Source: an uncultured Planctomycetales bacterium
GTDB lineage: Bacteria > Omnitrophota > Gorgyraeia > Zapsychrales > JANLHA01
Reading direction: 5' to 3'
Length of the DNA stretch: 39,711 nt
NCBI GenBank assembly: GCA_964574575.1
Contig: CAZNNZ010000003.1
Span: 1 to 39,711, forward strand
A program made the position numbers and the translations under genes. This document shows positions 8,500-35,411 of this stretch, piece after piece (the first letter of the stretch is position 1; each line of letters opens with the position of its first letter). Below the pieces are notes generated by a model that saw nothing but the letters and a program-made list of their open reading frames with translations, did not search any database and was not told where the DNA came from.

Positions 8500-8543
8500 A
8501 TTTTTCCCCTCATAAGTATGTTTAAAATTTTGCAAAGAAATTT

Positions 8544-17602: not shown

Positions 17603-17656
17603 AGGCACTCACTTCTAACTGAAACATCGGTTGATCAAATAATTATTAATACAGTT

Positions 17657-21330: not shown

Positions 21331-22332
21331 TCATTCCAACACTGTTCCTTTAATAAAAGGCTGACCCTGCGTTAAATTCACAATATTAGTCACCGTCATG
21401 CGCGAAATATCAGCTAAAGCTTCCGCCGTTAAAAATGCCTGATGCGAGGTAACAATAACATTAGGAAATGTAAGCAAACGCGACAATTCATCATCCTGCA
21501 AAACCAAACCTGAAAGGTCTTCAAAGAAAACCCCTTCTTCTTCTTCATACACATCCAGAGCAACCCCACCCAACTTTCCTGTTTTAAGCGCATCAATTAA
21601 AGCCGCCGTATCAACCAACTTTCCGCGACTGACATTAATAAGAATCGCGCCGGGCTTCATCAAGTCGATTGTTTCCCGACGAACAACGAATTTTGTCTCA
21701 GTAGTTAAAGGAAGATGCAAAGACACGACATCGCTTTCTCGGGCCAATGTTTTAGCGTCAACATATTCTGCCCCGCATTTTTTTGCCCAATCTTCCTGCT
21801 TAAATACATCAAAAACAAGCAATTTCATACCAAATCCTTTAAGGATCTCGGCGGTAATACGCCCGATTCTTCCTGTCCCCAAAATGCCCGCAGTCTTGCC
21901 ATGCAAATCCATTCCGACAAGGCCATTGAGAGAAAAATTCTGATCCCGGACACGGTTGTAAGCCTTATGAATTTTTCGATTAAGTGTCAATAAAAGTGCG
22001 ACGGCGTGTTCGGCAACAGCATAGGGTGAATATTCGGTAGCCCTTGTGACGGCAATCTGCAATTCTTTGGCCGCGCCGATATCAACATTATTAAATCCTG
22101 TGCAGCGCAAAACGACAAGCTTAACACCACACTTAGCCAAAATTTCAAGACAAGAGCGGTCTACTTTATCATTCACAAAAACGCAAACGACTTGAGACCC
22201 TTGCGCCGACAAAGCCGTTTCGGGCGTCAAACGAAAATCCAAAAAACGCCACTCAATCTCTGAATTTAAAGCCGCACTCTCAAGCGAATCCCTATCGTAA
22301 GTTTTTGTATCGTAAACACTAACTGTTATCAT
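21331..22332 (-). CDS. ldhA: D-lactate dehydrogenase / D-isomer-specific 2-hydroxyacid dehydrogenase (LdhA-like)
   Basis: MITVSVYDTKTYDRDSLE...WRFLDFRLTPETA parallels the E. coli LdhA N-terminus. The NAD site is GILGTGRIGRITA and the catalytic region is NVSRGKLVD...TSHQAFLT. I use the ATG at 22332, which forms an ATGA overlap with the glgP stop, rather than the track's upstream start at 22371 inside glgP. Confidence 0.85.
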   Translation of the reverse strand: MITVSVYDTKTYDRDSLESAALNSEIEWRFLDFRLTPETALSAQGSQVVCVFVNDKVDRSCLEILAKCGVKLVVLRCTGFNNVDIGAAKELQIAVTRATEYSPYAVAEHAVALLLTLNRKIHKAYNRVRDQNFSLNGLVGMDLHGKTAGILGTGRIGRITAEILKGFGMKLLVFDVFKQEDWAKKCGAEYVDAKTLARESDVVSLHLPLTTETKFVVRRETIDLMKPGAILINVSRGKLVDTAALIDALKTGKLGGVALDVYEEEEGVFFEDLSGLVLQDDELSRLLTFPNVIVTSHQAFLTAEALADISRMTVTNIVNLTQGQPFIKGTVLE

Positions 22333-24881
22333 AACGATGCTCTTTGGTTCTGAACTGGCTTGACATTCCAAATCTTTTGCGCATACTCACTGATCGAACG
22401 ATCTGATGAGAACTTTCCACTGCGCGCGACATTTAAAATAGACATCTTGGCCCACTTTTTTTGATCTTGATAAGCCCCAGAAACTTTCTCCTGACATGCA
22501 AAATAAGAAGAAAAATCGGCACAAACAAGATACTCATCATGCGACGAAAGTGAATTGACTAAAGAACCAAAAACTTCGCGGTCCCCTTTAGAGAAAAATC
22601 CACAACGAATCTGTTCAACGGCTTCTTTTAATTGATCATTGGCATTGATATAATCCCCCGGACGATACCCCGAGGATTTAAGACGCTCCACTTCTTGCAC
22701 AGTCAAACCAAAGAGAAAGAAGTTTTCTTTTCCAACTTCTTCCATAATTTCGACATTAGCGCCATCAAGAGTTCCGATCGTCATAGCACCGTTAAGCGCA
22801 AACTTCATATTCCCAGTTCCCGAAGCTTCCTTACCAGCCGTCGAAATTTGTTCAGAAAGTTCCGCTCCCGGATAAATTACCTGACCATTCGTAACATTAA
22901 AATCCGGGAAATAAACAACCTTAAGCTTTCCATTTATCGATCGGTCATTATTGACAACGTCCGCAATCGATGTAATCAATTTGATCATACGTTTAGCCAT
23001 AAAATATCCAGGAGCCGCTTTACCGCCAAAGATGACTGTTCTGGGAGTTTTAACGGACTGAGGATCACGTTTCAAACGATTGTACAAAGCAATCACATGC
23101 AGCGCGTTAAGATGCTGTCGCTTGTATTCATGAATTCGTTTGACCTGAACATCAAAAAGTGTTGTTGGGTCAATCGTAAGCCCGGTTTTATGCTTAATCA
23201 AATTTCCCAAACGGCTTTTATTTTCTAATTTAATTTTCATCCAGCGCTGACTAAAAGAAGCATCGTCGGCAAAGCGTTCAAGTTTACGCAAGTCCTCCCA
23301 ACGAATGAGCCATCCGTCGCCGATTGCATCCGTAATAAGCGCCGTCAGACTAGGATTGCTCAAAGCCATCCACCGACGCAATGTCACGCCATTGGTGATA
23401 TTAAGAAACCGCTGCGGATAAATTTTATAAAAATCAGCTAATACGGTTTTTTTGAGCAATTCACTGTGAAGTGCGGCAACACCATTGATCGCATGACTCC
23501 CCGCCGAGGCAAGGTGAGCCATACGGACAAACTTAGGTTGAGTTTCATCAATCAGCGATAAACGCGAGACTATTGCTTGATCCTCTGGAAATTTGGCTTG
23601 GACTTCAGTTAAAAAGCGTCGGTTGATCTCATAAATAATTTCCAAATGTCTTGGGAGCAAAGATTGAAATAGCGGCACAGACCATTTTTCTAAAGCTTCA
23701 GATAATAAAGTGTGATTTGTGTAAGCAAAGCTGGCACACGTTATTTTCCATGCCACGTCCCAGTCTAGCTGTTCTTCATCGACAAGAATACGCATCAATT
23801 CCGCAACGCCGATGGACGGATGAGTGTCATTAAGCTGAATCGCAAAAGTTTCATGGAAACGGTCTAAAGAAAGCCCGCGCAGACGAAGCATCCGCAGCAT
23901 GTCCTGGATAGAACAAGAAACAAAGAAATATTGCTGGGCCAAACGCAGTTTTTTGCCAACTTCGGGCTCATCGTTGGGATATAAAACTTTTGAAATTGTT
24001 TCGGAAACGATCTTTTCATCGACAGCTTTATAATAATCGCCGGTATTGAATGCTTCAAAATTAAAAGACTCAACCGCCTGCGCGCTCCATAAGCGTAAAA
24101 TATTAACCATGTCCCCGCCATAACTTGGCACCGGCGTATCGTAAGCATTACCCTTAATTATCCGATTAGGAATCCAACGAACACGATCGTGGCCCTTTTC
24201 ATCTTTTTCAATTTGCGTATGCCCACCTAACTTAACTTCATAACAAATTTCTGGCCTTGCAAATTCCCAAGGATTTCCCAACCGCAACCATTTATCAGTT
24301 TTTTCAACCTGCCAGCCATCTTTTATTTCCTGATCAAATATCCCAAATTCGTAACGAATGCCATAGCCCATCGCAAGGATTTGCAGCGTCGAAAGCGAGT
24401 CCATATAACAAGCGGCCAAACGCCCAAGCCCGCCATTACCCAAACCGGGTTCTTCTTCCTGTTTTAAAAGCGTATCCAAATCAATCTTATATTTATCCTT
24501 AAATAACTCAACAGCCTCTTTGGCTGCATCATAAATTCCCAGATTAATAAGAGCATTCCCAAGATGCGGGCCCATCAAAAATTCGGCAGAAAGATAACTG
24601 ACGACTTTTACTTTTTTGTCATCGGAAAGACGCTTTAAAGTTTTACTCCATCTTTCCATCATCAAATCGCGGCTGCTATAAGCTAGTGCTAAATACCAAT
24701 CATTAACCGTCGCAAGTTCAACAGTACGCCCTAATGTGGAAAGCAAATGATTCTCAATTGCTTGCTTAATGGATGCGGCAGTCGCGGCAGGCTGGATTTT
24801 TAATGCCAGTGATGGGGTTGCTTTTTTTTCAACAGAAACACTTTTTTCTTTAGGCGCAACAGATAAAATCTTTGGCGACAT
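22329..24881 (-). CDS. glgP: Glycogen (alpha-glucan) phosphorylase
   Basis: 850 aa. PLP-lysine block EASGTGNMKFALNGAMTIGTLDGANVE, plus GNGGLGRLAACYMDS and RIHEYKRQ, are classic GT35 signatures. Confidence 0.95.
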   Translation of the reverse strand: MSPKILSVAPKEKSVSVEKKATPSLALKIQPAATAASIKQAIENHLLSTLGRTVELATVNDWYLALAYSSRDLMMERWSKTLKRLSDDKKVKVVSYLSAEFLMGPHLGNALINLGIYDAAKEAVELFKDKYKIDLDTLLKQEEEPGLGNGGLGRLAACYMDSLSTLQILAMGYGIRYEFGIFDQEIKDGWQVEKTDKWLRLGNPWEFARPEICYEVKLGGHTQIEKDEKGHDRVRWIPNRIIKGNAYDTPVPSYGGDMVNILRLWSAQAVESFNFEAFNTGDYYKAVDEKIVSETISKVLYPNDEPEVGKKLRLAQQYFFVSCSIQDMLRMLRLRGLSLDRFHETFAIQLNDTHPSIGVAELMRILVDEEQLDWDVAWKITCASFAYTNHTLLSEALEKWSVPLFQSLLPRHLEIIYEINRRFLTEVQAKFPEDQAIVSRLSLIDETQPKFVRMAHLASAGSHAINGVAALHSELLKKTVLADFYKIYPQRFLNITNGVTLRRWMALSNPSLTALITDAIGDGWLIRWEDLRKLERFADDASFSQRWMKIKLENKSRLGNLIKHKTGLTIDPTTLFDVQVKRIHEYKRQHLNALHVIALYNRLKRDPQSVKTPRTVIFGGKAAPGYFMAKRMIKLITSIADVVNNDRSINGKLKVVYFPDFNVTNGQVIYPGAELSEQISTAGKEASGTGNMKFALNGAMTIGTLDGANVEIMEEVGKENFFLFGLTVQEVERLKSSGYRPGDYINANDQLKEAVEQIRCGFFSKGDREVFGSLVNSLSSHDEYLVCADFSSYFACQEKVSGAYQDQKKWAKMSILNVARSGKFSSDRSISEYAQKIWNVKPVQNQRASL

Positions 24882-24932: not shown

Positions 24933-25547
24933 TTAAACACTCTCTTCTACTAGAGCGGCCTGATTTTTTTGTTTCGAAATCTTAGAACGAACAACCGCCG
25001 AACGTTCAGCATCACCTAAAAATATCTGTATACGTGAAATAGTTTCTTTACATTCAGGAATCAAAATTTTTTCAAAAAGATTGACCTTCTGAGTAATACG
25101 GCGTAATCCCACTTCCAAACGCTCAACCTGAATCTTTGAAGCCTCTTGCTGAGCTTTTAACATCGCCATTTGCTTTAATTTTTCAACCACATCATCAACC
25201 CAATGGCGCCGAACAAGCATCGAATACGGGGCGACTTCACAAATCACTTCATCAACAACAGGAATTCTGATTCCGACGATATTGTCTTCACGCGATTTAA
25301 CTTCCTTAACTGTGACCAATCCTGAAAGATTGATTTCGGGATTAGCTATCATAGGAAGTTTTTTACCGACATCCTCCATCAAAGCCTTGACCGCTGTAGT
25401 TGATTTTTCGTATTTGATTTTGGCCTTGGCCAACTCGCCAGTGAGCTGTTGACGCTTAAGATCCAATGACGGCAAAAGTCCTTTATAGAGCTTCATTTGC
25501 TCACGGACTTTTTGTAGAGAACTTTTACTAAATGAAATCTTTGCCAT
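24933..25547 (-). CDS. atpD: V-type ATPase subunit D (central stalk)
   Basis: MAKISFSKSSLQKVREQMKLYKGLLPSLDLKRQQL... and the C-terminal ITQKVNLFEKILIPECKETISRIQIFLGDAERSAVVRSK are typical D-subunit coiled-coil ends. The ATG at 25547 lies 7 nt after the atpB stop. The longer track start at 25619 overlaps atpB and adds a non-conserved basic leader. Confidence 0.85.
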   Translation of the reverse strand: MAKISFSKSSLQKVREQMKLYKGLLPSLDLKRQQLTGELAKAKIKYEKSTTAVKALMEDVGKKLPMIANPEINLSGLVTVKEVKSREDNIVGIRIPVVDEVICEVAPYSMLVRRHWVDDVVEKLKQMAMLKAQQEASKIQVERLEVGLRRITQKVNLFEKILIPECKETISRIQIFLGDAERSAVVRSKISKQKNQAALVEESV

Positions 25548-25554
25548 ATGCTTA

Positions 25555-26910
25555 TTATTTTTGAGCAACAACCTCAACAGCGCCAGCAGTTTCTTTCTTC
25601 GGATAATATTTATCGACAAGATTCTGCTTAATCAGCAATTCCTTTGAATCAAAACATTCGGCCAAAGTCTTCCAACAAAGATCCAGCGCTTCGTTTAACG
25701 GTATTGACACATGAATATCCATGAATCGGCTCTTAAACAGTGAACCGTATTTTAACAATTTTTCATCGAATGCCGAAAGCTCAAAAGCCATTGCCTTCTT
25801 TTTTTCAGCTTCTTTAGCACCCGCATAAAACCGTATCATGGCATTCATAATCTGCGAGTGATCCTCACGAGTGACTTTTCCAATAACATGCTGTTTAAGA
25901 CGGGACAAAGATCCGAAAGGATCAATGATCTTATCATGCAAATAAAATTGCCCTTCGGTTATATAACCGGTATTATCCGGAACCGGATGGGTCACATCAT
26001 TGCCGGGCATGGTCGTTACTGAAAGGATCGTCACAGAACCCGCTCCTTTATAATCACAAGCCTTTTCATACCGGGAAGCCAGCTGCGTATAAAGATCTCC
26101 CATATACCCGCGGGTCGCCGGAATACGCTCGAGAGAAATGCCAATTTCCTTCATCGCATCAGCATAAGAGGTCATGTCGGTCAAAAGAACCAGAACACGC
26201 TTTTTTTCCTCAACAGCAAATTTTTCGGCAACTGCCAATGCCATATCAGGAACCAACATTCTTTCAACAATCGGATCCGAAGCCAAATTAACAAACATCA
26301 CCGTACGATGAAGAACGCCATGATCCTCAAAAGCCTTTTTAAAAAAATGAAAATCGTCAAAAATAAGCCCCATCCCGCCAAAAACAACAATTTCAGCATC
26401 CGCTTGAAATCCAATGCGGGCTAAAAGTTCATTAAACGGTTCCCCTGAAACAGAAAAAATCGGTATTTTCTGACTCTCAACAAGACAATTAAAAAGATCA
26501 ATCATCGGCACATTTGTTTCAATCATCTTTGACGGCATAACACGCATCATCGGATTGACAGTTGGCCCAGCAACATGGATCTTAGGATCATTAGAAATAT
26601 CCGGTCCACCATCAATCGGACTTCCTGATCCGCCAAAAATTCTGCCTAAAATATTGGGAGAATATGTCGCTTCAAAAGGATGCCCAAGAAAGCGAACCCC
26701 CGCATCGGTAGAAATCCCTTTGCCGCCTGAAAAAACCTGAAGACTAACGCGGTCGCGATTTAATTGGACAACGCGCGCAAAAGATGATTCTCCGTCAGTA
26801 TTATCAACAACGGCAAGATCACCTAACGCCACATTGTCAGCTTTCACTACAATCACGTCACCAATAATCTCGAGCACGCGCGTATGCCTAAAAATTTCAG
26901 GAATCGTCAT
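25555..26910 (-). CDS. atpB: V-type ATPase subunit B (non-catalytic)
   Basis: 451 aa with the family blocks PATRGYMGDLYTQLASRYEKA, SVTILSVTTMPGNDVTHPVPDNTGYITEGQFYL and a degenerate P-loop region. An AGGAGG SD lies upstream. Confidence 0.95.
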   Translation of the reverse strand: MTIPEIFRHTRVLEIIGDVIVVKADNVALGDLAVVDNTDGESSFARVVQLNRDRVSLQVFSGGKGISTDAGVRFLGHPFEATYSPNILGRIFGGSGSPIDGGPDISNDPKIHVAGPTVNPMMRVMPSKMIETNVPMIDLFNCLVESQKIPIFSVSGEPFNELLARIGFQADAEIVVFGGMGLIFDDFHFFKKAFEDHGVLHRTVMFVNLASDPIVERMLVPDMALAVAEKFAVEEKKRVLVLLTDMTSYADAMKEIGISLERIPATRGYMGDLYTQLASRYEKACDYKGAGSVTILSVTTMPGNDVTHPVPDNTGYITEGQFYLHDKIIDPFGSLSRLKQHVIGKVTREDHSQIMNAMIRFYAGAKEAEKKKAMAFELSAFDEKLLKYGSLFKSRFMDIHVSIPLNEALDLCWKTLAECFDSKELLIKQNLVDKYYPKKETAGAVEVVAQK

Positions 26911-26956
26911 TGGAACCTCCTATTAAATAAGTAATGTTGTCACTGCTTAAAAATTT

Positions 26957-29900
26957 TTATTTTGCATTAACCGGAACCTTATAAAATATTGTATAAAGCA
27001 CGGGAACAAAAACCAAAGTCAACAATGTCGCAAAGCCAAGCCCAAACATAATGGTCACCGCCATTGAAACAAAAAAAGCATCACCCAGCAAGGGAATCAT
27101 TCCAAAGATCGTCGTCACTGCCGCCATCATAACCGGCCGCATACGGCTGACACCTGAAATCACAACCGCATCGTAAGGCGGCTTACCAGCGGCAACCTGA
27201 GCATTAATCTCATCAATGAGAACGATAGCATTTTTGATCAACATCCCCGAAAGGCTCAATAAACCCAGAAGAGGCATAAACCCAAAAGACTGCCCGAACA
27301 TCATAAGCCCAGCGGTGACACCGATAACAGCCAACGGCACGGTTAACCAAATCGCCAAAGGCTCGAGAAGATTATTAAAAAGAAAAATAACAATTAAAAC
27401 CATTATAATAAAAAATTTCGGAATATTTTCTGCCAAGCGGGAATTGGCTTTAGCAGAATCCTCGCCCTCACCGCCCCACCCAAAACTATAACCCGGCATA
27501 CCCTTGATCGAATATTCATTCTTGTAATAGAGAGGAATCGTCTTTGCGTTCCATTTTTTGGGATCAACTTCTTTCCCAGTAATTAACGCAGTGTCCGCAT
27601 TAAGCGCTTTTTCTATCTTGGCCTTGATGCGGCTAAACAAAATGCTGGGCAATCCAGAAACCGGATCCGCGTTAATTCTAAGCATATATTTACGGTTGCG
27701 TCTCCAAAGGTTGGCATCCTCATAAGTCGTGCTAAAACCAGAAACAATCTGCGCCATCGGAATCATTTTTTGCTGAGCCGGACTCCAAATCTCAAGTCGG
27801 TTTAAGTTGTCAAGATTAAGCCGTTCACTTTCCGGAGCACGGGCAACAATACTAATCAACTTGTCGTTTTCGCGGTAAACGCCAACTTGTGTACCTTGGA
27901 AAGCGGCCTCGATGGTCTTGGCAATATCTGGCCTATCAATTCCTAAACGCCGAGCCTGAGCTTCTGCAACTAAAGGACGAATGACTTTGACTTTTTCTCC
28001 CCAAATGTCATAAACTCCTTTGGCGCCGCCATCTTCATTAATAATAGCTCTAGCTTTTTCGGCCAACTTTCTAACCTCATCCACATTAGGCCCATTAATA
28101 CGTAATTGTATCTTTCCACCTTCGCCAGGACCTAATAGGAATTTTTTTGTAATGACCGTCACGTCCGGAAACAGTTCAGACAAATTGTTTTGAACTTCGC
28201 CGATCGTTTTATCAATACTTTTAAAATCATCCACCTTAACTAATATCTGTCCAAAAGAACGAGTCGCCATTTCCGTCGGATAAACCAATAAAAACCGGAC
28301 CTGTCCACCTCCGATAAATTGAACAGTATGCTTAATTTCTTTGCGTTTTTTCAAATACTCATCTGCCTGATTAAGGACTTTGACAGTATGCTCAACCTGT
28401 GAACCTTCTGGAAGCCAAAAATTAATGAAATATTGCGGCGTAGTCGAATTCGGGAAAAAACTTACCGGAATTTGCTTAAACCCTATGATCGACAAAATAA
28501 ACAAAACACTGACAATCCCGACGGTGACTACTCTATTGCGAAGACACAGTTCAAGAAAATTCTTGTAAACAACAAACAATTTCCCGGCATAAGGGTCTTT
28601 TTGTTGTGCCGCACTTGGCTTGAAGTTTTTTCCGATAAGAAACATTTTGCAAAACAACGGCGTCATCGTAACCGCGGTGACCCAGCTAAACATAAGAGAA
28701 ATCAAAATAACTTGAAAAAGAGTCCGGCAATATTCCCCTGTTGAATCTTGCGAAGTTCCAATAGCGGCAAACGCGGTGACTGCCACAATGGTCGCTCCCA
28801 ATAAAGGCATTGCTGTTTGACCAACAATTTCTTTGGCCGCTTGCAGAGCATCCCCGCCGCTTTCCATTTTGATCTTCATCCCCTCGGTAACCACAATCGC
28901 ATTATCCACCAGCATACCCAATGCGATGATCAGCGCTCCCAGAGAAATTCTCTCCAACGTTACGCCCCACGCATCCATAAAAATAAACGTGCCGGCAATC
29001 GTAAGCAAAAGAATCCAACCAATGATCAAACCACTGCGAAGTCCCATAAAAATCAAAAGAACAACTACCACAATAAGAACGGATTCCCAAAGGCTCACAA
29101 CAAAATCACTAATAGATTTTTTAACAGCCTCTGCTTGGAAATAAATAGTGTCCACCTTGATCCCAACAGGAATCTGCGCAACCAACTCTTTTACTTTTTT
29201 CGCAAGCCCGTCGCCCATCGTCACAGCATTGCCGCCCATAATCGTTGATATCCCTAAACCAACCGAAGGCTGACCATCATATTTCATAATAAATCGTGAA
29301 GGTTCTTCATAACCACGACGAACGGTCGCAACATCCTTCAAATAAACCAAGCGATCTGAACCTAAACCACCGATCAAAAGCTCGCCAAACTCTTTTTCTG
29401 ACTTAAATTCACCCGTAGGATTTAAAGGAAGAAACTCAGTCCCTAAGTTTGCGCTACCTGCATTTGAAACAACATTTTTTGCTTTTAATGAATCATAAAT
29501 ATTCTGTTGCGAAACGCCCAGTTGCGACATTTTTTCACGATTCATTTCAATATAAATAACTTCATTCTGGTCACCGTAAAATGTGATTTTCTTTACGTCT
29601 TGGACCTGCAGCAACTCGCGTCTGAGAAACTCAGCCGTGTCTTTTAATTCTGCGTAGGTGTAACCCTCTCCTCTTAAAGCCAAAAACACGCCATAAACAT
29701 CACCAAAATCATCATTGACAATTGGTTCCCCTGCACCGGGAGGAAGTTGTCCTTTGGCATTTTGAATTTTACGACGCAACTCATCCCAAACCTGAGGCAA
29801 AGCTGATTTATCATATTGATCTTTAATAAAAACCTTGACCGTCGAAAGATTACGCGAAGATTTTGATTCGACATAATCAAGCTGGCCCATCTCTTGAACC

Positions 29901-30109
29901 GCTTTTTCGATGACATTGGTAACTTCCTCGGCAACTTCTTTTGCTGAAGCGCCAGGATATGGCGTGGTAATCGTAGCTTGCTTGATTGTAAATTCTGGGT
30001 CTTCCAAACGCGATAATTTTTGATACGATTTTATACCGGCAAAAAGGACAACCGCAGTTAAAACAAGAGTGATAACACTTTTCTTAATCGAAAATTCGGC
30101 AATATTCAT
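26957..30109 (-). CDS. RND efflux transporter, inner-membrane permease (AcrB/HAE-type)
   Basis: 1050 aa. N-terminus MNIAEFSIKKSVITLVLTAVVLFAGIKSY..L.RLEDPEFTIK, two large periplasmic loops and 12 TM-like segments. GMLVDNAIVVTE and GMLIKNAIVLID are the duplicated TM4/TM10 motifs. Confidence 0.9.
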   Translation of the reverse strand: MNIAEFSIKKSVITLVLTAVVLFAGIKSYQKLSRLEDPEFTIKQATITTPYPGASAKEVAEEVTNVIEKAVQEMGQLDYVESKSSRNLSTVKVFIKDQYDKSALPQVWDELRRKIQNAKGQLPPGAGEPIVNDDFGDVYGVFLALRGEGYTYAELKDTAEFLRRELLQVQDVKKITFYGDQNEVIYIEMNREKMSQLGVSQQNIYDSLKAKNVVSNAGSANLGTEFLPLNPTGEFKSEKEFGELLIGGLGSDRLVYLKDVATVRRGYEEPSRFIMKYDGQPSVGLGISTIMGGNAVTMGDGLAKKVKELVAQIPVGIKVDTIYFQAEAVKKSISDFVVSLWESVLIVVVVLLIFMGLRSGLIIGWILLLTIAGTFIFMDAWGVTLERISLGALIIALGMLVDNAIVVTEGMKIKMESGGDALQAAKEIVGQTAMPLLGATIVAVTAFAAIGTSQDSTGEYCRTLFQVILISLMFSWVTAVTMTPLFCKMFLIGKNFKPSAAQQKDPYAGKLFVVYKNFLELCLRNRVVTVGIVSVLFILSIIGFKQIPVSFFPNSTTPQYFINFWLPEGSQVEHTVKVLNQADEYLKKRKEIKHTVQFIGGGQVRFLLVYPTEMATRSFGQILVKVDDFKSIDKTIGEVQNNLSELFPDVTVITKKFLLGPGEGGKIQLRINGPNVDEVRKLAEKARAIINEDGGAKGVYDIWGEKVKVIRPLVAEAQARRLGIDRPDIAKTIEAAFQGTQVGVYRENDKLISIVARAPESERLNLDNLNRLEIWSPAQQKMIPMAQIVSGFSTTYEDANLWRRNRKYMLRINADPVSGLPSILFSRIKAKIEKALNADTALITGKEVDPKKWNAKTIPLYYKNEYSIKGMPGYSFGWGGEGEDSAKANSRLAENIPKFFIIMVLIVIFLFNNLLEPLAIWLTVPLAVIGVTAGLMMFGQSFGFMPLLGLLSLSGMLIKNAIVLIDEINAQVAAGKPPYDAVVISGVSRMRPVMMAAVTTIFGMIPLLGDAFFVSMAVTIMFGLGFATLLTLVFVPVLYTIFYKVPVNAK

Positions 30110-30116
30110 AAGTTGG

Positions 30117-31223
30117 CTACTCCGTGATCTTTTCTCTTTCTGTTTTTTGCAAAACCTTCATCCCTTCACTTAGTTCGCGAATACCAGCGACCACGATCGC
30201 CATTCCAGGCTCCAAACCACCTTTGACTTCAATACTTCCTGTACCGGTGACTTCACCCATTGTGATATCACGTTTATGAACCGTCTGATCTTTTTCATCA
30301 ACGACCCACACGTACGACTTTCCAGATGGATCAGCTTGAACAGCCGTTGACGGCAAAAGATAAACCGAACTGGCTTTTTGACCATCTTTTGCCTCAAGAC
30401 TTAAAGAAACTTTAGCTGACATGCCAGGCAAAACCTGAACTTTGTCCGGACGAGGAAGCGTAAATTTAACCTTAAATGTCTGAGTCACAGGATCAGCTTG
30501 AGTTTCATATTCTTTGACTTCAAGATTGAAATTTTGTCCAGGAAAGGTATCAAACTCAGCCTTCGCCTCTTTAAGCTTCATGGCTTGCAATACTGCCAAA
30601 TCCCTCTCAGGCACATAAACAACAACTTCGATAGCTTCATTATTTTGAATCCTGGCGATTGATTCCTTAGCTTGAACCGACTGAAAATTATCAACATTAA
30701 TCGTCGCGACAACGCCCGCAAATGGCGCTCTCAAATACGAATCCTGAACCTTCTTTTCGGCGATCTTTTTATTGGATTCCGCAACGGACTTGTTGCGTTC
30801 TTTAGTTTCAAGGTCTTGACGCGAAACAGCATCTTTTTCATACAGCTCTCGATATCGATTAAGTTCCGCCAAAGTCTTTTCATAATCCGCTTTTTTTGCA
30901 ACAAGATCATTTTCATAATCCCGTGCATCGAGCTTGGCTATCACATCGCCAGCGGCAACAGACATCCCGCGAGTAACAGGCAATTCGATGATTTTACCGG
31001 CAACTTCAAAAGAAACATCAACGCTGTCCTTAGCTTCGGTCTTTCCAGAATAAGACCGCGTCGCCACTCCACCCACGTCCTCAATAACCATGACTCGAAC
31101 AGGCCGAGCTGGCTGGACTTGTTCAACTTCCTTAGCTTTATTTCCACAAGAACTCAAAACAATCCCCACAAGAACAAAAAACACATATTGAATCATAAAT
31201 CTTTTTCTAAGCATCATTTTCAT
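30117..31223 (-). CDS. RND periplasmic adaptor (membrane fusion protein), lipoprotein
   Basis: Lipobox in MKMMLRKRFMIQYVFFVLVGIVLSSCGNK, a coiled-coil hairpin region (DYENDLVAKKADYEKTLAELNRYRELYEKDAVSRQDLE) and a beta-barrel/MP domain. I prefer the ATG at 31223 (GGAAAGGG SD upstream) to the track start at 31256. Confidence 0.85.
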   Translation of the reverse strand: MKMMLRKRFMIQYVFFVLVGIVLSSCGNKAKEVEQVQPARPVRVMVIEDVGGVATRSYSGKTEAKDSVDVSFEVAGKIIELPVTRGMSVAAGDVIAKLDARDYENDLVAKKADYEKTLAELNRYRELYEKDAVSRQDLETKERNKSVAESNKKIAEKKVQDSYLRAPFAGVVATINVDNFQSVQAKESIARIQNNEAIEVVVYVPERDLAVLQAMKLKEAKAEFDTFPGQNFNLEVKEYETQADPVTQTFKVKFTLPRPDKVQVLPGMSAKVSLSLEAKDGQKASSVYLLPSTAVQADPSGKSYVWVVDEKDQTVHKRDITMGEVTGTGSIEVKGGLEPGMAIVVAGIRELSEGMKVLQKTEREKITE

Positions 31224-31260
31224 AGAATCACCCTTTCCTTCTCTAAATATATACATTTGA

Positions 31261-33636
31261 TCACTTGCCTACGGCAACACCCTTGGATTCGAAATAACCT
31301 TGAACATCTTTAATCCATTTTTCCCGGCTCTCTTTAGAATCCAACATATAAAACCTCGCGACTTGCCTATCAAAACTCGCTAAATTATCAAAGAAATTAT
31401 ACACAGCAATCACAGCATCCGCTTCACGCTGAAATTTATCAGTTTGAATGTTAATCAAATCAACATAAGAAATAAGACCTTCCTGATATTTGAGTTTCAT
31501 AATCTCATATTCTTCGGTCGTACTCTCCATAGATTGACGCTTAAGATCAATCGAAGGCAATGAATTATAAATAGCATACGCAGAAAGCCTAATATCTCGT
31601 TCAATTTCCTGCTTCTTAAGAAACTGGGAATACCGCAACTGTTTTAGAATATCCCGCTGTTTCATCGAATCAATCGGCCGTCTACCCTGATCAAAAAGCG
31701 GATAAGTCAAGCGAACACCCACATCCCAGCCATCATTATCTCCAACTTGGTCAGGACCATGATAATTTTCTTCGATACTCCTATTGATATTTCCATCCAC
31801 TGAAACCTCAGGCAGGAAAAATTTTCCGTCGGCAGATTTAATAGTATTATTCTGTTGTTTGATTCCAATATCCAGCGCTTTAATCTCCGGCGAATTACCC
31901 ATAGCCTGCGCAACCGAAAACGCCAAAAACATCTTGAGTGTTTCAGAATTAGTAACATACGGATCTAAACTTTTACCGCCGATATAGTATTGAAGAGTCT
32001 CAAGCCCAACATCCTGTTCGGCAAAAACCTCTTCCTGCCCTTTATTCATCAACTGATTGAGAATGACACGCGCCTGAAAAACATTTGAATCTCTCAAAAG
32101 AACCAATGACTTTTCACTGGCTAATTCTGCTTGCCAACGCAAAACTTCTTCTTTGCCAGCTGTCCCCGTATCTCTTCGTCTTTGAGCAACAGCCAAATTT
32201 TCGGTAACGGACTTGACCCTTTCCTGCTCAACCTTCAAGAGAGCCTTGGCTCTCAAATAATTAAGATAAGCGCTGATTGTTTGCTGTGTAATATCCAGCG
32301 TAAAAGTCGCTTTGTTTAATTCTTCGACCTTAACCTGCATTTTAGCGTTACTGATATTACGGATAACCGGATGACTAAAAATCAATTGATTTAACCTAAT
32401 TCCCTGAAATGTATTTTCTTTTGGAATAGTCGAAGCATAGCGGGATTTATCATAATCCGTTCTTTCGTAATCAAGATGATATTGCGCACTGGGCAAATAG
32501 CTTGACCAAGCCAACCAATAATCCTTGCCGACCGCCTTGATTTGCTCATTAAGAATTTTGAAATTCAAATTGTTCTTAAGAGCATCGTCAACCGCCTGTT
32601 GCATCGAAAGAGCTGCGCCTTGAAGATCATCTCTAAAAAGCACCTCGGCATTCATTAAAATATCAAACGGAAGCGACAAATTGATTTGATTGGCAGTCCG
32701 CTGGTTAACGACAAGAGCATTCTCAAGGTCAAAACGAGTCGAAATTGTTCCGGCGTCTTCTCCTTTAATGATACGATCAACAGTCAGCGCAATTCTACGG
32801 GATAATTGCGTCTTTAGCTTAGGAACACGTCCTGCCAAAATCCCTTCTTCGACATCTTCATATCCTTTGTAAGAAAATGTCGGAATCTTACGTTTGTTAA
32901 TTTCATCGATAAAAATTTTATTTTCTTCGCGAGAAAGATTAAGAGGAGTGACATAGAGAGCTTTCACTTTAGCTTCATCAATACGAGCGAGGATCTCCTT
33001 GACGGTTCCTGCTCCAGAGATCAATTCCACCTTAATATCTTTTTGATTCAACGTCGCAGAAACCTTTTGAGCATACGCTTTAAGACCATCAACGACAAGA
33101 ACATGAACTGTATCGTACGAGAGAATCCGACGGAACAAACGCATATCCTCACCTATAGCATTGACTTTGGAAGGATAATAAAAGTTAGCAACCCCGGTTG
33201 TCCCTTGCGCTGTTTTTGGCATGCCCAAAATCTCGGGATCCAAAAGAGAAACGACAATCACTGGTTTTGAAACAGGTAAATGAGTATTGACCGCTGCGGT
33301 AAATAGTGGACCTGACACAAGGATTATGTCAACAGCTGGATCTTCGAGAGATTTTTTTAATAATGCTTCAACGCGGACTGGATCCCATTGTGCAGTTTGT
33401 TCAGGAAAAAAATTGACCTTATAATTATCCGCTGCAATAACCGTCAAATCATTGCGAATGTTTTGGAATAAACTCTTAGAATAAGCATAGTCACCATCTA
33501 GGAGGGTCGCAATGGATTTAGTCGAAATCGTGCTGTTGAAGGAATCAGAGGTTTGAGCAAAACTTAATTTGTCACTGAAGGATAAACACGGGGAAAAAAA
33601 AAGCAAAAGAAACAAACTGATCGATTTTTTTATCAT
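31261..33636 (-). CDS. Outer-membrane efflux factor (TolC/OEP family, C-terminal about 450 aa) fused to an N-terminal periplasmic-binding-protein-like domain (about 340 aa, ABC_sub_bind-like)
   Basis: 791 aa with a signal peptide (MIKKSISLFLLLFFSPCLSFS). Residues about 40-335 show alternating beta-alpha segments and a C-terminal motif VVNQRTANQINLSLPFDILMNAEVL, resembling the end of ABC_sub_bind/PBP1 proteins. From about residue 340 (LSMQQAVDDALKNNLNFKILNEQI...) the protein has the two-repeat TolC-like organisation with coiled-coil segments. Confidence 0.8.
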   Translation of the reverse strand: MIKKSISLFLLLFFSPCLSFSDKLSFAQTSDSFNSTISTKSIATLLDGDYAYSKSLFQNIRNDLTVIAADNYKVNFFPEQTAQWDPVRVEALLKKSLEDPAVDIILVSGPLFTAAVNTHLPVSKPVIVVSLLDPEILGMPKTAQGTTGVANFYYPSKVNAIGEDMRLFRRILSYDTVHVLVVDGLKAYAQKVSATLNQKDIKVELISGAGTVKEILARIDEAKVKALYVTPLNLSREENKIFIDEINKRKIPTFSYKGYEDVEEGILAGRVPKLKTQLSRRIALTVDRIIKGEDAGTISTRFDLENALVVNQRTANQINLSLPFDILMNAEVLFRDDLQGAALSMQQAVDDALKNNLNFKILNEQIKAVGKDYWLAWSSYLPSAQYHLDYERTDYDKSRYASTIPKENTFQGIRLNQLIFSHPVIRNISNAKMQVKVEELNKATFTLDITQQTISAYLNYLRAKALLKVEQERVKSVTENLAVAQRRRDTGTAGKEEVLRWQAELASEKSLVLLRDSNVFQARVILNQLMNKGQEEVFAEQDVGLETLQYYIGGKSLDPYVTNSETLKMFLAFSVAQAMGNSPEIKALDIGIKQQNNTIKSADGKFFLPEVSVDGNINRSIEENYHGPDQVGDNDGWDVGVRLTYPLFDQGRRPIDSMKQRDILKQLRYSQFLKKQEIERDIRLSAYAIYNSLPSIDLKRQSMESTTEEYEIMKLKYQEGLISYVDLINIQTDKFQREADAVIAVYNFFDNLASFDRQVARFYMLDSKESREKWIKDVQGYFESKGVAVGK

Positions 33637-33656
33637 AGCATCAAACTCCTAAACCT

Positions 33657-33686
33657 TTTTTATACTAGGATTGCAGCTTATACAAA
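33657..33686 (-). promoter_or_regulatory. Candidate sigma70-type promoter for the RND operon (weak)
   Basis: Minus-strand reading gives TTTGTA/TTGTAT ... TATAAA (spacer 15-16 nt) in the only sizeable intergenic gap (113 nt) of the central array. An AGGAG SD precedes the ATG at 33636. The -35 match is poor, so this is tentative. Confidence 0.2.
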
Positions 33687-33749
33687 AAAGTTATTTTTGT
33701 CTATTAGAATTTGTACTGACCGCCAGAACATTCGTGTCTAAGAAAATTG

Positions 33750-35411
33750 TCACCCTGTCACGAGCAAAGAACGCGACAGTATGCCTCCAGAAATGTTTAG
33801 GACTTTAAACCCATTTTGCAAAAGAATACGAGTGGCTAAATAAGCGCGCTGAGCCGAACGGCAAATGACAAATATCTCTTTGTCTTTCGGAAGTTCTTTA
33901 AGACGACTACGCAATTGCGCCAAAGGAATATTAAGTGCACCCGGCACTTTTTCGACGGCAAGTTCTGAAGGGTTCCGAACATCGAGAAGAAATCCGTCAG
34001 TAATCGAATCCCAATGAACAACTGGCATATCCCCGCGAAGAATATTGGCGGCGATCATCCCCATAAAATTGACAGGATCTTTTGCGCTGCCAAATGGCGG
34101 CGCATAACAAAGCTCGGATTCTTCCAAATCATACACGGTACATTGATTTTGTATCGCCATAGCAATCGCATCAACACGCGCTTTGACTCCGTGCTCTCCA
34201 AAAACCTGCACACCTAAAACACGGCCATTAGATTTTCGAAACAAAAATTTAATCGATAGCATCACAGCCCCCGGATAATATCCAGCGTGTGAATTAGGAA
34301 AAAGATAAATTTTTTCATAATCCGTGTCTCCCATTCTAATGAGCTGTTTTTCACTGACGCCAGTGGACGCTACCGCCGCACCAAAAACCTGACAAATCGA
34401 AGTTCCCTGTGTACCACGATATCGAGAATCACGTCCGGTCATAACCTCGGCGGCAATACGACCTTGACGATTCGCCGGCCCGGCCAGCGGAATAAGCGTC
34501 CATTGCCCCGTCACAAAATCTTTGATCTCGACGGCATCGCCAACAGCAAAAATATCAGGATTACTTGTGCGCATCTGCTCATCAACACGAATTCCCCCAC
34601 GCTCTCCAATCTCAATCCCCGCCATTTTAGCTAATTCGATTTCGGGTTTTACACCGATGGCGCAAATCACAATATCTGCCGGATAAATTTTCCCAGATTC
34701 CGTTAATACTTCAAGCGCACCATCAGCTGACTGCTTAAATCCAGCCAACCCGTCGCTAAGCTCGACCTTTACTCCATTATCGATAAACCGACGTTTAACC
34801 AAAAGTGCAATCTGTGAATCAAGCGGTGGCATCAACTGATTCATTTTTTCAATCAGCGTAACTTGAGCGCCGGTATGAACCAAATTTTCCGCCATCTCCA
34901 AACCAATGAATCCACCGCCGATCACAACCGCACGTTTCGCTTTATTGACCGCTTGATCCCCAACGCTTTGACGAGAAAGCCAAGTTTTAATAGCTCTTGT
35001 ATCAGGAACCGTTCTTAGAGTAAAAATTCCGGGAAGATCGAACCCGGGAAGTTTAGGCTTAATCGGTGCCGATCCGGGAGAAAGGACAAGTTTGTCGTAC
35101 GATTCAATAGTCACCTTACCAGTTTTAAGATCCTTTAACTCTACTGTTTTGTTAAGAGTCGAAATACCGGTCACTTCACATTGAGTTCGCACATCAATAG
35201 CAAACTGATCACGGAATGTCGCCTCGGTGGCTACAAAAAGGCTGGATTCTTTTTCAATAACTCCGCCGATATGATAGGGCAAACCGCAATTCGCATAGGA
35301 AACATACGGCCCCCGTTCGACCATGAGGATATGAGCTTTTTCATCCAACCTGCGCAAACGCGCCGCACACGACGCGCCGCCTGCGACTCCACCAACGATA
35401 ATAACTTTCAT
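33750..35411 (-). CDS. CoA-disulfide reductase-type FAD/NAD(P)H oxidoreductase with C-terminal rhodanese domain (CoADR-RHD / persulfide-polysulfide reductase-like)
   Basis: MKVIIVGGVAGGASCAARLRRL (FAD fold), redox Cys in YVSYANCGLPYHIGG, a second dinucleotide fold AVVIGGGFIGLEMAE, and a C-terminal rhodanese module with the active-site loop FVICRSAQRA. Confidence 0.85.
   Translation of the reverse strand: MKVIIVGGVAGGASCAARLRRLDEKAHILMVERGPYVSYANCGLPYHIGGVIEKESSLFVATEATFRDQFAIDVRTQCEVTGISTLNKTVELKDLKTGKVTIESYDKLVLSPGSAPIKPKLPGFDLPGIFTLRTVPDTRAIKTWLSRQSVGDQAVNKAKRAVVIGGGFIGLEMAENLVHTGAQVTLIEKMNQLMPPLDSQIALLVKRRFIDNGVKVELSDGLAGFKQSADGALEVLTESGKIYPADIVICAIGVKPEIELAKMAGIEIGERGGIRVDEQMRTSNPDIFAVGDAVEIKDFVTGQWTLIPLAGPANRQGRIAAEVMTGRDSRYRGTQGTSICQVFGAAVASTGVSEKQLIRMGDTDYEKIYLFPNSHAGYYPGAVMLSIKFLFRKSNGRVLGVQVFGEHGVKARVDAIAMAIQNQCTVYDLEESELCYAPPFGSAKDPVNFMGMIAANILRGDMPVVHWDSITDGFLLDVRNPSELAVEKVPGALNIPLAQLRSRLKELPKDKEIFVICRSAQRAYLATRILLQNGFKVLNISGGILSRSLLVTG

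What the first reader, a model, noticed from the sequence alone, without database searches (positions are those of the whole stretch)
31261..33636. TolC-like outer-membrane factor carrying an N-terminal periplasmic-binding-protein-like domain
The first gene of the RND operon is 791 aa, roughly 340 aa longer than ordinary OEP/TolC proteins. After a signal peptide, the extra N-terminal region looks like a PBP/ABC_sub_bind-type alpha/beta domain and ends in VVNQRTANQINLSLPFDILMNAEVL. The TolC-like part begins near residue 340 (about nt 32620). A ligand-binding-type domain tethered to the exit duct could gate or target efflux, or anchor the duct. Either would be unusual for tripartite pumps.
Basis: partly seen in the sequence, partly recalled or inferred. 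Interest (0 to 1): 0.65.

Follow-up and report, generated by a model that had tools for sequence, protein, structure and literature searches.

The report
TolC exit duct with built-in binding-protein domain
The outer-membrane exit duct of this efflux pump really does carry an extra periplasmic domain with a nutrient-binding-protein fold, and this unstudied design recurs in hundreds of environmental bacteria, but the domain has lost the known ligand pocket, so its job is still open.

Summary
ORF 31261-33636 (minus strand, 791 aa) is one protein: a signal peptide, a PF04392-type class I binding-protein domain (residues ~39-333), a 9-residue acidic linker, and a complete TolC-family duct (343-791). 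It is the first gene of an OMF-MFP-RND operon whose RND is closest to TriC/MexK.

The fusion is not an artefact. Contigs from four independent metagenomes cover the junction without a mismatch. A profile of the N-domain finds 858 cluster representatives at E<=1e-30, and 131 full-length (740-910 aa) sequences were in hand. Members occur in Omnitrophota, Verrucomicrobiota, Acidobacteria, Desulfobacterota-type and Hydrogenedentota genomes, nearly always next to MFP and RND genes.

The two halves are equally conserved (0.317 vs 0.315 pairwise identity, r=0.84). The linker length is nearly fixed. AlphaFold gives pLDDT 91 and pTM 0.84. The residues that hold aromatic amino acids in solved PF04392 proteins are replaced, no ABC genes are nearby, and the family is not lipidated.

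Best reading: a rigid three-fold collar at the duct's equatorial belt, analogous in position to the YbjP lipoprotein on E. coli TolC. A ligand-sensing role is not excluded. I found no description in the literature: a new variant of a known kind.

The parts
31261..33636 (-). Whole gene: 791-aa fused outer-membrane factor (binding-protein-like domain plus TolC-family duct), including the stop codon.
   Evidence: ORF. Pfam OEP plus ABC_sub_bind. Conserved full-length relatives. Junction verified in independent assemblies.
33556..33636 (-). Sec-type signal peptide, residues 1 to ~27 (MIKKSISLFLLLFFSPCLSFSDKLSFA|Q). There is no canonical lipobox. The cleavage site is inferred from the sequence.
   Evidence: Sequence. 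pLDDT is below 50 for residues 1-5 and 19-33. 121 of 131 family members lack a lipobox-like motif.
32638..33522 (-). N-terminal periplasmic domain, residues 39-333: a two-lobed alpha/beta class I binding-protein fold of the PF04392 family with a remodelled cleft.
   Evidence: Pfam. Profile against PDB (3lkv E=4.2e-10). AF2 pLDDT about 90-97. Foldseek 3lft TMt 0.76, 6hni 0.72, 3lkv 0.74. Ligand-contact positions replaced. Family-specific conserved residues D47, G48, W84, K124, S147, F168, F174, S255, G258, R280, R281 and T314.
32611..32637 (-). Short acidic linker, residues 334-342 (FRDDLQGAA). The family consensus is rich in N/E/D and its length is nearly fixed.
   Evidence: The span from A330 to L343 is 14-15 residues in 113 of 131 members. 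Linker pLDDT is 86-91 with the deep alignment.
31261..32610 (-). TolC-family duct, residues 343-791: two OEP repeats (about 345-532 and 574-753), four beta strands, long alpha hairpins and equatorial segments.
   Evidence: Pfam OEP E=2.7e-39 in two stretches. NCBIfam TolC/NodT matches from residue 342. Secondary structure. Foldseek TolC, ST50, CusC and OprM at TMt 0.74-0.85. The span from L343 to L381 is exactly 39 residues in 131 of 131 members.
30117..31256 (-). Membrane-fusion (periplasmic adaptor) protein, 379 aa as the longest ORF. It has a lipobox, LSSC, near the N-terminus, so it is probably a lipoprotein.
   Evidence: Pfam HlyD_3 and HlyD_D23. NCBIfam TIGR01730 RND_mfp at 233 bits, above its cutoff of 94.9. 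Lipobox read from the sequence.
26957..30109 (-). RND inner-membrane permease, 1050 aa, of the hydrophobe/amphiphile (multidrug) type. The closest solved relatives are TriC (6vej) and MexK.
   Evidence: Pfam ACR_tran E=8e-155. NCBIfam RND_permease_2 at 445 bits, below the curated cutoff. PDB sequence search gives 6vej E=1.9e-182 and MexK E=1.6e-171, against about 1e-59 for AcrB/MdtF-type pumps.

Best explanation
Shown: the gene encodes one secreted polypeptide in which a diverged PF04392 class I binding-protein (Venus-flytrap) domain is joined to the mature N-terminus of a complete TolC-family outer-membrane factor. The join is a 9-residue acidic linker of nearly fixed length. The protein is the duct of a conventional tripartite RND exporter, with a lipoprotein adaptor and a TriC/MexK-like permease. 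The fusion is ancient, evolves as one unit, and is widespread in uncultured Omnitrophota, Verrucomicrobiota, Acidobacteria, Desulfobacterota-type and Hydrogenedentota bacteria.

Inferred: the N-terminus of TolC lies at the equatorial belt of the trimer. The three N-domains should therefore form a rigid collar around the duct, between the outer membrane and the adaptor tips. This is the zone where E. coli TolC binds three copies of the lipoprotein YbjP, and where OprM/CusC-type ducts carry their lipidated N-terminal arm.

Proposed mechanism (my commitment, about 0.4): the domain no longer carries solutes to a transporter. Instead it acts as a built-in accessory scaffold that stabilises, orients or spaces a non-lipidated duct in the envelope and for adaptor docking. 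Efflux itself would proceed as in AcrAB-TolC or TriABC-OpmH.
For: One polypeptide, not an artefact:
- The ORF is continuous.
- Contigs from four independent runs cover the junction with 0 differences.
- The alignment has no gap at the junction.
- The short database hits are truncated fragments that run into the OMF part or stop in the linker. They are not stand-alone domains.

Domain identities:
- The AF2 model with 131 sequences has pLDDT 91.1.
- Foldseek matches TolC at TMt up to 0.85 and 3lft, 6hni and 3lkv at 0.72-0.76.

Pump context:
- MFP and RND genes lie next to the fused gene in the window.
- The same holds in every related locus with at least 1 kb of downstream flank.
- The RND is closest to TriC and MexK.

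Family size and spread:
- 858 representatives match at E<=1e-30, and most of the top 150 are 775-880 aa.
- 10 of 10 sampled members have OEP domains.

Functional constraint:
- The N-domain and the OMF part have mean pairwise identities of 0.317 and 0.315, with Pearson r=0.84 over 8515 pairs.

Rigid mounting:
- The linker is 14-15 residues (A330 to L343) in 113 of 131 members.
- pTM rises to 0.84 and linker pLDDT to 86-91 with the deep alignment.

Not a canonical solute carrier:
- The ligand-contact residues of TrpX/CD0873/VC_1101 (PMC9382623, PMC6816091) are replaced: T to V/P/L/I, A to F/L, T to I/L/V/Q, D to S/T/hydrophobic, N to R/H/Q.
- Six of the seven mapped positions show only 15-39% top-residue frequency, below the level typical of the domain. 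The seventh (G258) is 98% conserved.
- No ABC permease or ATPase genes lie nearby.

Not lipidated:
- 121 of 131 members have no lipobox-like motif.

Precedent for an accessory domain at this site:
- YbjP binds TolC 3:3 at the equatorial domain and is read as a scaffold or anchor (PMC13082787, PMC13095208; the complexes 9tg4 and 9v52 appear).
Against: - The position of the collar is inferred from TolC homology and from pTM. I could not inspect coordinates or a trimer model, so contacts with neighbouring protomers, the membrane, peptidoglycan or the adaptor are unknown.
- The two-lobe, hinged fold is fully preserved. Loops that line the cleft in solved relatives carry some of the best-conserved family motifs (G109, N151, F254-S255-x-x-G258, R280-R281).
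- In the close Omnitrophota subfamily, a Lys or Arg replaces the Asp that binds the ligand's amino group. Together with the previous point, this would suit a re-specified ligand pocket as well as a scaffold.
- A rigid linker is also what an allosteric sensor would need.
- YbjP itself has no clear phenotype (PMC13082787), so 'scaffold' is a weakly defined function.
- Many non-lipidated TolC proteins manage without any partner.
Confidence: 0.45

Rival explanations
1. Ligand-sensing regulator. The N-domain is a re-specified Venus-flytrap sensor. Binding of a periplasmic small molecule closes the two lobes. Through the short rigid linker and the equatorial domain, this closure changes duct opening or adaptor recruitment, so the pump is switched post-translationally.
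For: - The complete two-lobe hinged fold is retained with high confidence.
- Family-specific conserved residues sit in or beside loops that line the cleft in solved relatives: G109, N151, FS..G258 and R280-R281.
- The Omnitrophota subfamily has a conserved Lys or Arg where the canonical proteins have the amino-group-binding Asp.
- The linker is short, of fixed length and confidently modelled, as force transmission would need.
- No transcriptional regulator is consistently next to the operon.
- From general knowledge, not tested here: PF04392-like domains also occur as periplasmic sensor modules of signalling proteins.
Against: - Six of the seven positions homologous to ligand contacts are variable (15-39% top-residue frequency) and mostly hydrophobic across 131 members. 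That argues against one common ligand.
- No ligand can be named.
- In E. coli, YbjP stays bound at this site while TolC opens, without taking part in gating (PMC13095208). So this site is not known to couple to the aperture.
- The model resembles the closed form although no ligand was present in the prediction. This point is weak, because AF2 tends to favour closed forms.
Confidence: 0.3
2. Substrate capture and hand-off. The domain binds the pump's substrates in the periplasm and passes them to the adaptor or the RND permease, as CusF does for CusCBA or as fused substrate-binding domains do for ABC importers.
For: - The fold is that of a solute carrier.
- The cleft positions are mostly hydrophobic, which would suit the hydrophobic substrates expected for a TriC/MexK-like permease.
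Against: - The linker is only about 9 residues and rigid. This holds the domain at the equatorial belt, far from the RND porter-domain entrances near the inner membrane (geometry from established AcrAB-TolC structures).
- A hand-off over that distance would need a long flexible tether.
- The canonical contact residues are lost.
- No example is known of an OMF-borne substrate carrier.
Confidence: 0.07
3. Envelope tether. [quoted passage not shown] This is a more specific version of the scaffold idea, with an external partner.
For: - The inferred position lies between the outer membrane and the peptidoglycan layer. The TolC equatorial domain has been proposed to touch peptidoglycan, and YbjP lies just under the membrane (PMC13082787, PMC13095208).
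- The family has invariant surface-type charged residues (D47, E63, K124, R280, R281) and lacks a lipid anchor.
- Many hosts are PVC-group bacteria with atypical envelopes. The link to their envelopes is an inference.
Against: - No peptidoglycan-binding motif or domain is detected.
- The family also occurs in Acidobacteria and Desulfobacterota-type bacteria with ordinary envelopes.
- Nothing here tests binding.
Confidence: 0.13
4. Artefact or decaying remnant. The ORF is an assembly or frameshift fusion of two genes, or the N-domain is a functionless relic.
For: The whole-protein PF04392 score is just under Pfam's gathering score (23.5 against 25.9), and the canonical binding residues are lost.
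Against: - Independent assemblies agree exactly across the junction.
- 131 full-length relatives keep the same frame and linker length.
- The N-domain is as conserved as the duct and co-diverges with it.
- 13 of 14 relatives match PF04392 individually.
Confidence: 0.01

Closest known systems
TolC / OprM / CusC outer-membrane factors (Pfam OEP PF02321)
   Same: The C-terminal 449 residues have two OEP repeats and the TolC protomer fold (TMt up to 0.85 to TolC, 0.74-0.78 to OprM, CusC and SilC). The gene lies in an operon with an adaptor and an RND permease.
   Different: It carries about 300 extra structured residues at the mature N-terminus. It has no lipobox, unlike OprM and CusC. It scores far below the NCBIfam TolC (77 vs 225 bits) and NodT (64 vs 210 bits) subfamily cutoffs, so it is a divergent OMF lineage.
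PF04392 aromatic-amino-acid binding proteins: TrpX/SP1069 (3lft), VC_1101 (3lkv), CD0873 (6hni)
   Same: The class I two-lobe fold and the fold-defining motifs are shared (vD, KPV, N151, P-x-F, V-E-x-G, iN..TA..iG..iP). Profile E-values are 4e-10 to 2e-6 and TMt is 0.72-0.76.
   Different: The ligand-contact residues are replaced. There is no ABC permease or ATPase partner. The domain is covalently fused to an outer-membrane duct rather than free or lipid-anchored. It has family-specific invariant residues (W84, K124, S147, S255, G258, R280-R281, T314).
YbjP, the lipoprotein partner of E. coli TolC (DUF3828; PDB 9tg4, 9v52)
   Same: It is an accessory periplasmic domain present at three copies per duct at the equatorial belt, on a non-lipidated duct, and is read as a scaffold or positioning element (PMC13082787, PMC13095208). 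The position here is inferred from the attachment point.
   Different: There is no homology: the fold is different and no DUF3828 match is found. YbjP is a separate, lipid-anchored protein of about 19 kDa. Here the domain is about 33 kDa, covalently attached and not lipidated.
TriABC-OpmH and MexJK pumps of Pseudomonas aeruginosa
   Same: The RND permease is far closer to TriC (6vej, E=1.9e-182) and MexK (E=1.6e-171) than to AcrB-type pumps (about 1e-59).
   Different: The window has one adaptor gene, whereas TriABC has two (general knowledge). The Pseudomonas pumps use ordinary ducts (OpmH, OprM) that are not encoded in the pump operon. Substrates are untested here.
Venus-flytrap domains fused to membrane machines (ABC importers with fused binding domains, GluR0/iGluR channels, class C receptors)
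   Same: A binding-protein fold is covalently joined to a membrane transport or channel protein. Weak Foldseek hits to GABA-B receptor ectodomains reflect the shared fold.
   Different: In those systems the domain faces an inner or plasma-membrane protein and is known to bind a ligand. Here it is joined to an outer-membrane duct and ligand binding is unproven.

Membership tests
Outer-membrane factor, TolC family (PF02321 OEP) | Two tandem OEP repeats recognised by the family profile | tested here: met
   E=2.7e-39, 135 bits against a cutoff of 22, in two stretches; 10 of 10 sampled relatives also match.
Outer-membrane factor, TolC family (PF02321 OEP) | TolC protomer fold: four beta strands, long alpha hairpins and equatorial segments | tested here: met
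   Searches give the secondary structure, with pLDDT mostly 90-98 in the deep-alignment model. One search gives TolC TMt 0.82-0.85.
Outer-membrane factor, TolC family (PF02321 OEP) | Genetic linkage to a periplasmic adaptor and an inner-membrane transporter | tested here: met
   for the window. for every related locus with enough flank.
Outer-membrane factor, TolC family (PF02321 OEP) | Homotrimer forming a 12-stranded barrel and a periplasmic tunnel | not testable with these tools
   Only monomer prediction was available, and no coordinates were returned.
NCBIfam TolC (TIGR01844) and NodT (TIGR01845) subfamilies | Score above the curated subfamily cutoff | tested here: not met
   77.1 against 225 bits and 64.1 against 210 bits. 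It is an OMF, but not a member of either curated subfamily.
Lipidated OMFs (OprM/CusC/NodT type) | Lipobox with the +1 Cys at the end of the signal peptide | tested here: not met
   The sequence has no canonical lipobox; 121 of 131 family members have no lipobox-like motif.
PF04392 ABC_sub_bind (TrpX/CD0873/VC_1101) | Match to the family profile at or above the gathering score | tested here: inconclusive
   The whole protein scores 23.5 bits, below 25.9. The isolated domain scores 27.0 bits, above it, and 13 of 14 relatives match with a best E of 1.7e-12. A profile of the domain hits 3lkv at E=4.2e-10. Homology is secure. Formal Pfam membership depends on how the query is cut.
PF04392 ABC_sub_bind (TrpX/CD0873/VC_1101) | Class I two-lobe alpha/beta fold with a hinge | tested here: met
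   3lft TMt 0.76, 3lkv 0.74, 6hni 0.72.
PF04392 ABC_sub_bind (TrpX/CD0873/VC_1101) | Conserved residues that bind the amino and carboxyl groups of the amino-acid ligand (TrpX T108, A127, T129, D152, N233) | tested here: not met
   these residues are replaced in the window protein (P110, S130, L132, K157) and across 131 members. The residue list comes from PMC9382623 and PMC6816091.
PF04392 ABC_sub_bind (TrpX/CD0873/VC_1101) | Works with an ABC permease and ATPase encoded nearby | tested here: not met
   No ABC genes lie beside the gene in the window or in loci L010, L013 and L014.
YbjP-type TolC accessory lipoprotein (DUF3828) | Homology to DUF3828 and an N-terminal lipid anchor | tested here: not met
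   No DUF3828 match and no lipobox. The resemblance is one of inferred position and role only.
YbjP-type TolC accessory lipoprotein (DUF3828) | Three copies bound at the equatorial domain of the duct trimer | not testable with these tools
   Inferred from the attachment to the TolC-like N-terminus through a rigid 9-residue linker and from the TolC topology described in PMC13082787.
Venus-flytrap sensor modules | Ligand-induced lobe closure coupled to an output domain | not testable with these tools
   This needs binding assays or structures. Only the fold and the rigid coupling are shown.

The most novel reading that the evidence does not exclude
A ligand-gated exit duct. The three Venus-flytrap domains sense a periplasmic small molecule, possibly an amphipathic or anionic one given the hydrophobic cleft with a conserved basic residue. 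Through the rigid linker and the equatorial belt, they would control duct opening or adaptor docking. This would be the first outer-membrane efflux component with built-in chemical sensing, an outer-membrane counterpart of glutamate-receptor-type gating. The recurrent K+-channel-like neighbour gene might then belong to the same physiological circuit.
Probability: 0.2. Interest if true: 0.85.

Novelty: new variant of a known kind. Interest (0 to 1): 0.6.

Why it matters
Tripartite efflux pumps are central to antibiotic and biocide resistance. Their outer-membrane ducts have been regarded as passive, single-purpose parts. Only in 2026 was E. coli TolC shown to carry an accessory protein (YbjP) at its equatorial belt, and the role of that protein is still unclear.

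This family shows that several phyla have hard-wired a much larger domain to what is inferred to be the same site, and have kept it under selection as strong as on the duct itself. That gives a natural and abundant test case for what accessory domains at this position do: anchoring, spacing, assembly or sensing. It is also an example of a solute-binding-protein fold recruited to a non-transport role in the outer membrane.

In practice, these roughly 800-aa proteins are currently annotated only as 'TolC family protein', so the architecture is invisible in annotation-based surveys.

Tried and rejected
- The first word-indexed homology search found only 18 relatives and made the family look rare. 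The exhaustive profile search corrected this.
- The search for related loci with the 16-sequence alignment failed for lack of conserved stretches. It worked with the 11 closer sequences.
- A sequence-only PDB search with the single N-domain gave only 3lkv at E=0.44. The profile was needed.
- The promoter and terminator scan of 26700-33900 found no more sites than in shuffled sequence (10 against 14.0 expected promoters, 7 against 7.9 terminators). It says nothing about operon boundaries.
- RNA evidence is one exact 163-nt metatranscriptome contig at 31365-31526. That is too little to claim expression or co-transcription.
- Stand-alone or split versions of the N-domain were looked for among the short hits. 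All are truncated fragments.
- Literature searches for PF04392, COG2984, ABC_sub_bind with OEP, TolC with substrate-binding protein and fusion terms, and TolC with Omnitrophota found no description of this architecture.
- Mapping conserved residues onto the 3D model, and inspecting inter-domain or trimer contacts, was not possible because the tools return no coordinates.
- With 131 sequences I did not attempt coevolution (DCA) analysis between the domains.
- Assembly artefact and functionless relic were both considered and rejected.
Full report
**1. The observation**

One search lists a single ORF at 31261..33636 on the minus strand: 791 aa with an ATG start. On the same strand it is followed after 4 nt by a 379-aa gene (30117..31256), and after a further 7 nt by a 1050-aa gene (26957..30109).

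Pfam identifies these two as a membrane-fusion protein (HlyD_3, HlyD_D23) and an RND permease (ACR_tran, E=8e-155). In the 791-aa protein it finds two OEP stretches (E=2.7e-39). It also finds a nearly end-to-end match to ABC_sub_bind PF04392: residues 70-330 against profile positions 30-289 of 293, E=3.9e-5, 23.5 bits against a gathering score of 25.9.

NCBIfam TolC and NodT models match from residue ~342 onward, well below their subfamily cutoffs.

**2. Is the N-terminal domain really a binding-protein homologue?**

Yes.
- The isolated domain scores 27.0 bits against PF04392, above the cutoff. 13 of 14 relatives match individually, with a best E of 1.7e-12.
- A profile built from the domain (alignment A2) hits the three solved PF04392 proteins: 3lkv (E=4.2e-10), 3lft (4e-9) and 6hni (2.4e-6).
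- AlphaFold2 with a 131-sequence alignment gives mean pLDDT 91.1 and pTM 0.84, with alternating beta-alpha elements over residues 39-333.
- Foldseek puts that part on 3lft (TMt 0.76), 3lkv (0.74) and the closed form of CD0873 (6hni, 0.72; the open form 6hnj gives 0.58).
- Foldseek puts the C-terminal part on TolC, ST50, CusC, OprM and SilC at TMt 0.74-0.85.
- No solved structure covers both parts.

**3. Is it one gene?**

Contigs from four independent public metagenome runs (bioreactor, wastewater and activated sludge) cover 32489-33034, including the junction, with no mismatch and no gap. Relatives at 37-71% identity have the same length and align through the junction without a gap.

The exhaustive profile search with the N-domain finds 13,670 proteins at E<=1e-3, 2,153 at E<=1e-10 and 858 at E<=1e-30, among representatives clustered at 50% identity. 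Most of the top 150 are 775-880 aa with the domain at residues ~30-340. All ten sampled members carry OEP at the C-terminus.

In the 131-sequence alignment, residues in both halves are invariant: G265 and N311 in the N-domain, and P382, Q417, R500, Y717 and G720 in the duct. The shorter hits are truncated. They either run on into duct sequence or stop inside the linker, so I found no stand-alone form. The artefact explanation is excluded.

**4. Who has it, and in what context?**

Named sources include:
- Candidatus Omnitrophota MAGs, MAGs labelled Planctomycetia, and Acidobacteria bacterium Mor1.
- Verrucomicrobiota.
- Deltaproteobacteria MAGs, Desulfobotulus sp. and Candidatus Hydrogenedentota.

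NCBI calls them 'TolC family protein'. JGI sometimes gives both names, TolC and ABC-type substrate-binding protein. The window's nearest relatives, and its shared V-type ATPase genes with L002, suggest an Omnitrophota-like genome from engineered or wastewater habitats.

In every related locus with at least about 1 kb of sequence beyond the gene, an adaptor gene and an RND gene lie next to it. The order is usually OMF-MFP-RND, and one lineage has a convergent arrangement. The single exception is a very distant 809-aa branch (21% identity), whose neighbours have no Pfam matches.

The window's RND is much closer to TriC (6vej, E=1.9e-182) and MexK (E=1.6e-171) than to AcrB- or MdtF-type pumps (about 1e-59). 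The adaptor exceeds the RND_mfp cutoff and has a lipobox (LSSC) in its N-terminal region (sequence). No ABC-transporter genes are nearby.

**5. What the anatomy says about function**

(a) The N-domain is under the same constraint as the duct. Mean pairwise identity is 0.317 against 0.315 over 8,515 pairs, and the two sets of distances correlate (r=0.84). This is an old fusion evolving as one unit.

(b) The tether is short, acidic and nearly fixed in length. A330 to L343 spans 14-15 residues in 113 of 131 members, and the next 39 residues of the duct have no length variation at all. With the deep alignment the linker is modelled at pLDDT 86-91 and the whole chain at pTM 0.84. That indicates a defined inter-domain geometry.

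(c) The duct part starts exactly where mature TolC starts. According to the YbjP-TolC structural papers, the N-terminal helix of TolC runs from the equatorial domain up to the barrel (PMC13082787). The three N-domains should therefore sit at the equatorial belt. This step is inference.

(d) The family is not lipidated: 121 of 131 members have no lipobox-like motif.

(e) The pocket of the characterised relatives is gone. PMC9382623 and PMC6816091 identify the contacts for the amino-acid backbone (TrpX T108, A127, T129, D152, N233) and two specificity positions.
- In the window protein the aligned residues are P110, S130, L132 and K157.
- Across 131 members the aligned columns are dominated by V/P/L/I, F/L, I/L/V/Q, S/T/hydrophobic and R/H/Q.
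- Top-residue frequencies there are 15-39%, except for G258 at 98%.
- The fold-defining motifs are kept.
- The family has its own near-invariant residues: D47, G48, W84, K124, S147, F168, F174, S255, G258, R280, R281 and T314.

**6. Most likely mechanism**

The pump itself should work like other RND tripartite exporters. For the extra domain I commit, at about 0.4, to a built-in accessory collar. Three rigidly mounted domains with a remodelled cleft at the equatorial belt would stabilise, orient or space a non-lipidated duct. This is analogous in place and stoichiometry to YbjP on E. coli TolC, which both 2026 studies read as a scaffold or anchor that stays bound while TolC opens (PMC13082787, PMC13095208).

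What is shown: domain identities, the genuineness and age of the fusion, the pump context, linker rigidity, loss of the canonical pocket, and absence of lipidation.

What is inferred: the position on the trimer and the scaffold role.

The main rival, at about 0.3, is a re-specified Venus-flytrap sensor that regulates the duct. The intact hinge architecture supports it, and so do the conserved motifs in cleft-lining loops. In the Omnitrophota subfamily a Lys or Arg replaces the amino-group-binding Asp, which also fits. The variability of the homologous contact positions argues against a common ligand.

Substrate capture and hand-off is unlikely (about 0.07), because a 9-residue rigid tether keeps the domain far from the permease entrances. 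A tether to peptidoglycan or another envelope partner (about 0.13) is a more specific form of the scaffold idea and is untested.

**7. Comparison with what is known, and novelty**

The protein is an OMF by every feature I could test, though outside the curated TolC and NodT subfamilies. Its N-domain is a homologue of PF04392 binding proteins but fails two functional hallmarks of that family: the ligand contacts and the ABC partner genes. It is not related to YbjP.

I found no paper describing an OMF with a binding-protein-like domain. Databases hold many members under a generic name. I rate it a new variant of a known kind. It is large and widespread, unstudied, and newly relevant given the YbjP findings.

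**8. Side observation**

A protein of ~205-230 aa with an Ion_trans_2 pore and a T-x-G-Y-G-D filter lies directly beside the operon in 9 of about 15 distinct related loci. These include members only ~25% identical and a Verrucomicrobiota genome. The window's own homologue (2421-3092, minus strand) is 28 kb away, beside a SulP/STAS permease. I have no explanation for this association.

Noticed in passing
L004:3587-4270, L006:6917-7603, L005:7201-7875, L003:14620-15309, L002:15951-16643, L010:7262-7912, L013:6253-6870, L025:~7719-8096, L032:~14963-15349; window 2421-3092 (-): A small membrane protein (~205-230 aa) with an Ion_trans_2 pore domain and a K+ selectivity-filter motif (T-x-G-Y-G-D) lies directly beside the fused-OMF/MFP/RND operon in 9 of about 15 distinct related loci. 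Its position and orientation vary, and the loci include members only ~25% identical. In the window the homologue (up to 46% identity, E=2e-30) is 28 kb away, next to a SulP/STAS anion permease (3106-4848). The reason for this recurrent neighbourhood is unknown.
   Followed up: partly
L011:7001-9430 and L012:7001-9430 (protein P0018; also P0015-P0017): A distant 809-aa branch (21% identity, with only faint OEP and N-domain similarity) is not next to any recognisable MFP or RND gene. It is flanked by a 1272-1292-aa protein and a 473-aa protein (cut to 414 aa at the contig end in L012), neither with any Pfam match. It may be the duct of a different, undescribed export system.
   Followed up: partly
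window 12171-14039, 15812-17608, 24933-25619, 25555-26910 (all -): V-type ATPase genes (subunits A, I, D and B) are split into two groups. Glycogen and glycolysis genes lie between them: a debranching-type enzyme at 17657-19798, pyruvate kinase at 19822-21300, a 2-hydroxyacid dehydrogenase at 21331-22371 and glycogen phosphorylase at 22329-24881. The B-subunit gene ends only 46 nt downstream of the RND gene on the same strand. L002 has the B and D homologues about 6 kb upstream of its pump operon.
   Followed up: no
window 4814-5353 and 5384-7531 (-): Two adjacent ORFs both match the MGH1-like glycoside hydrolase domain. The 715-aa ORF covers profile positions 1-264 and the 179-aa ORF covers 283-354. 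This looks like one gene split by a frameshift or stop, either a pseudogene or an assembly error.
   Followed up: no
window 33750-35411 (-): The gene just upstream of the pump operon encodes a pyridine-nucleotide disulfide oxidoreductase fused to a C-terminal rhodanese domain (CoA-disulfide or persulfide reductase type). It is separated from the OMF gene by 113 nt.
   Followed up: no
window 7528-8535 and 8544-9893 (-): An adjacent pair of uncharacterised genes with strong matches to DUF2950 (E=2e-111) and DUF3300 (E=6e-94).
   Followed up: no
L008:7169-7891 (Acidobacteria bacterium Mor1): In the Acidobacteria locus the gene immediately upstream of the fused OMF encodes a DUF3313 protein (E=5e-36) instead of the channel-like protein seen elsewhere.
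   Followed up: no
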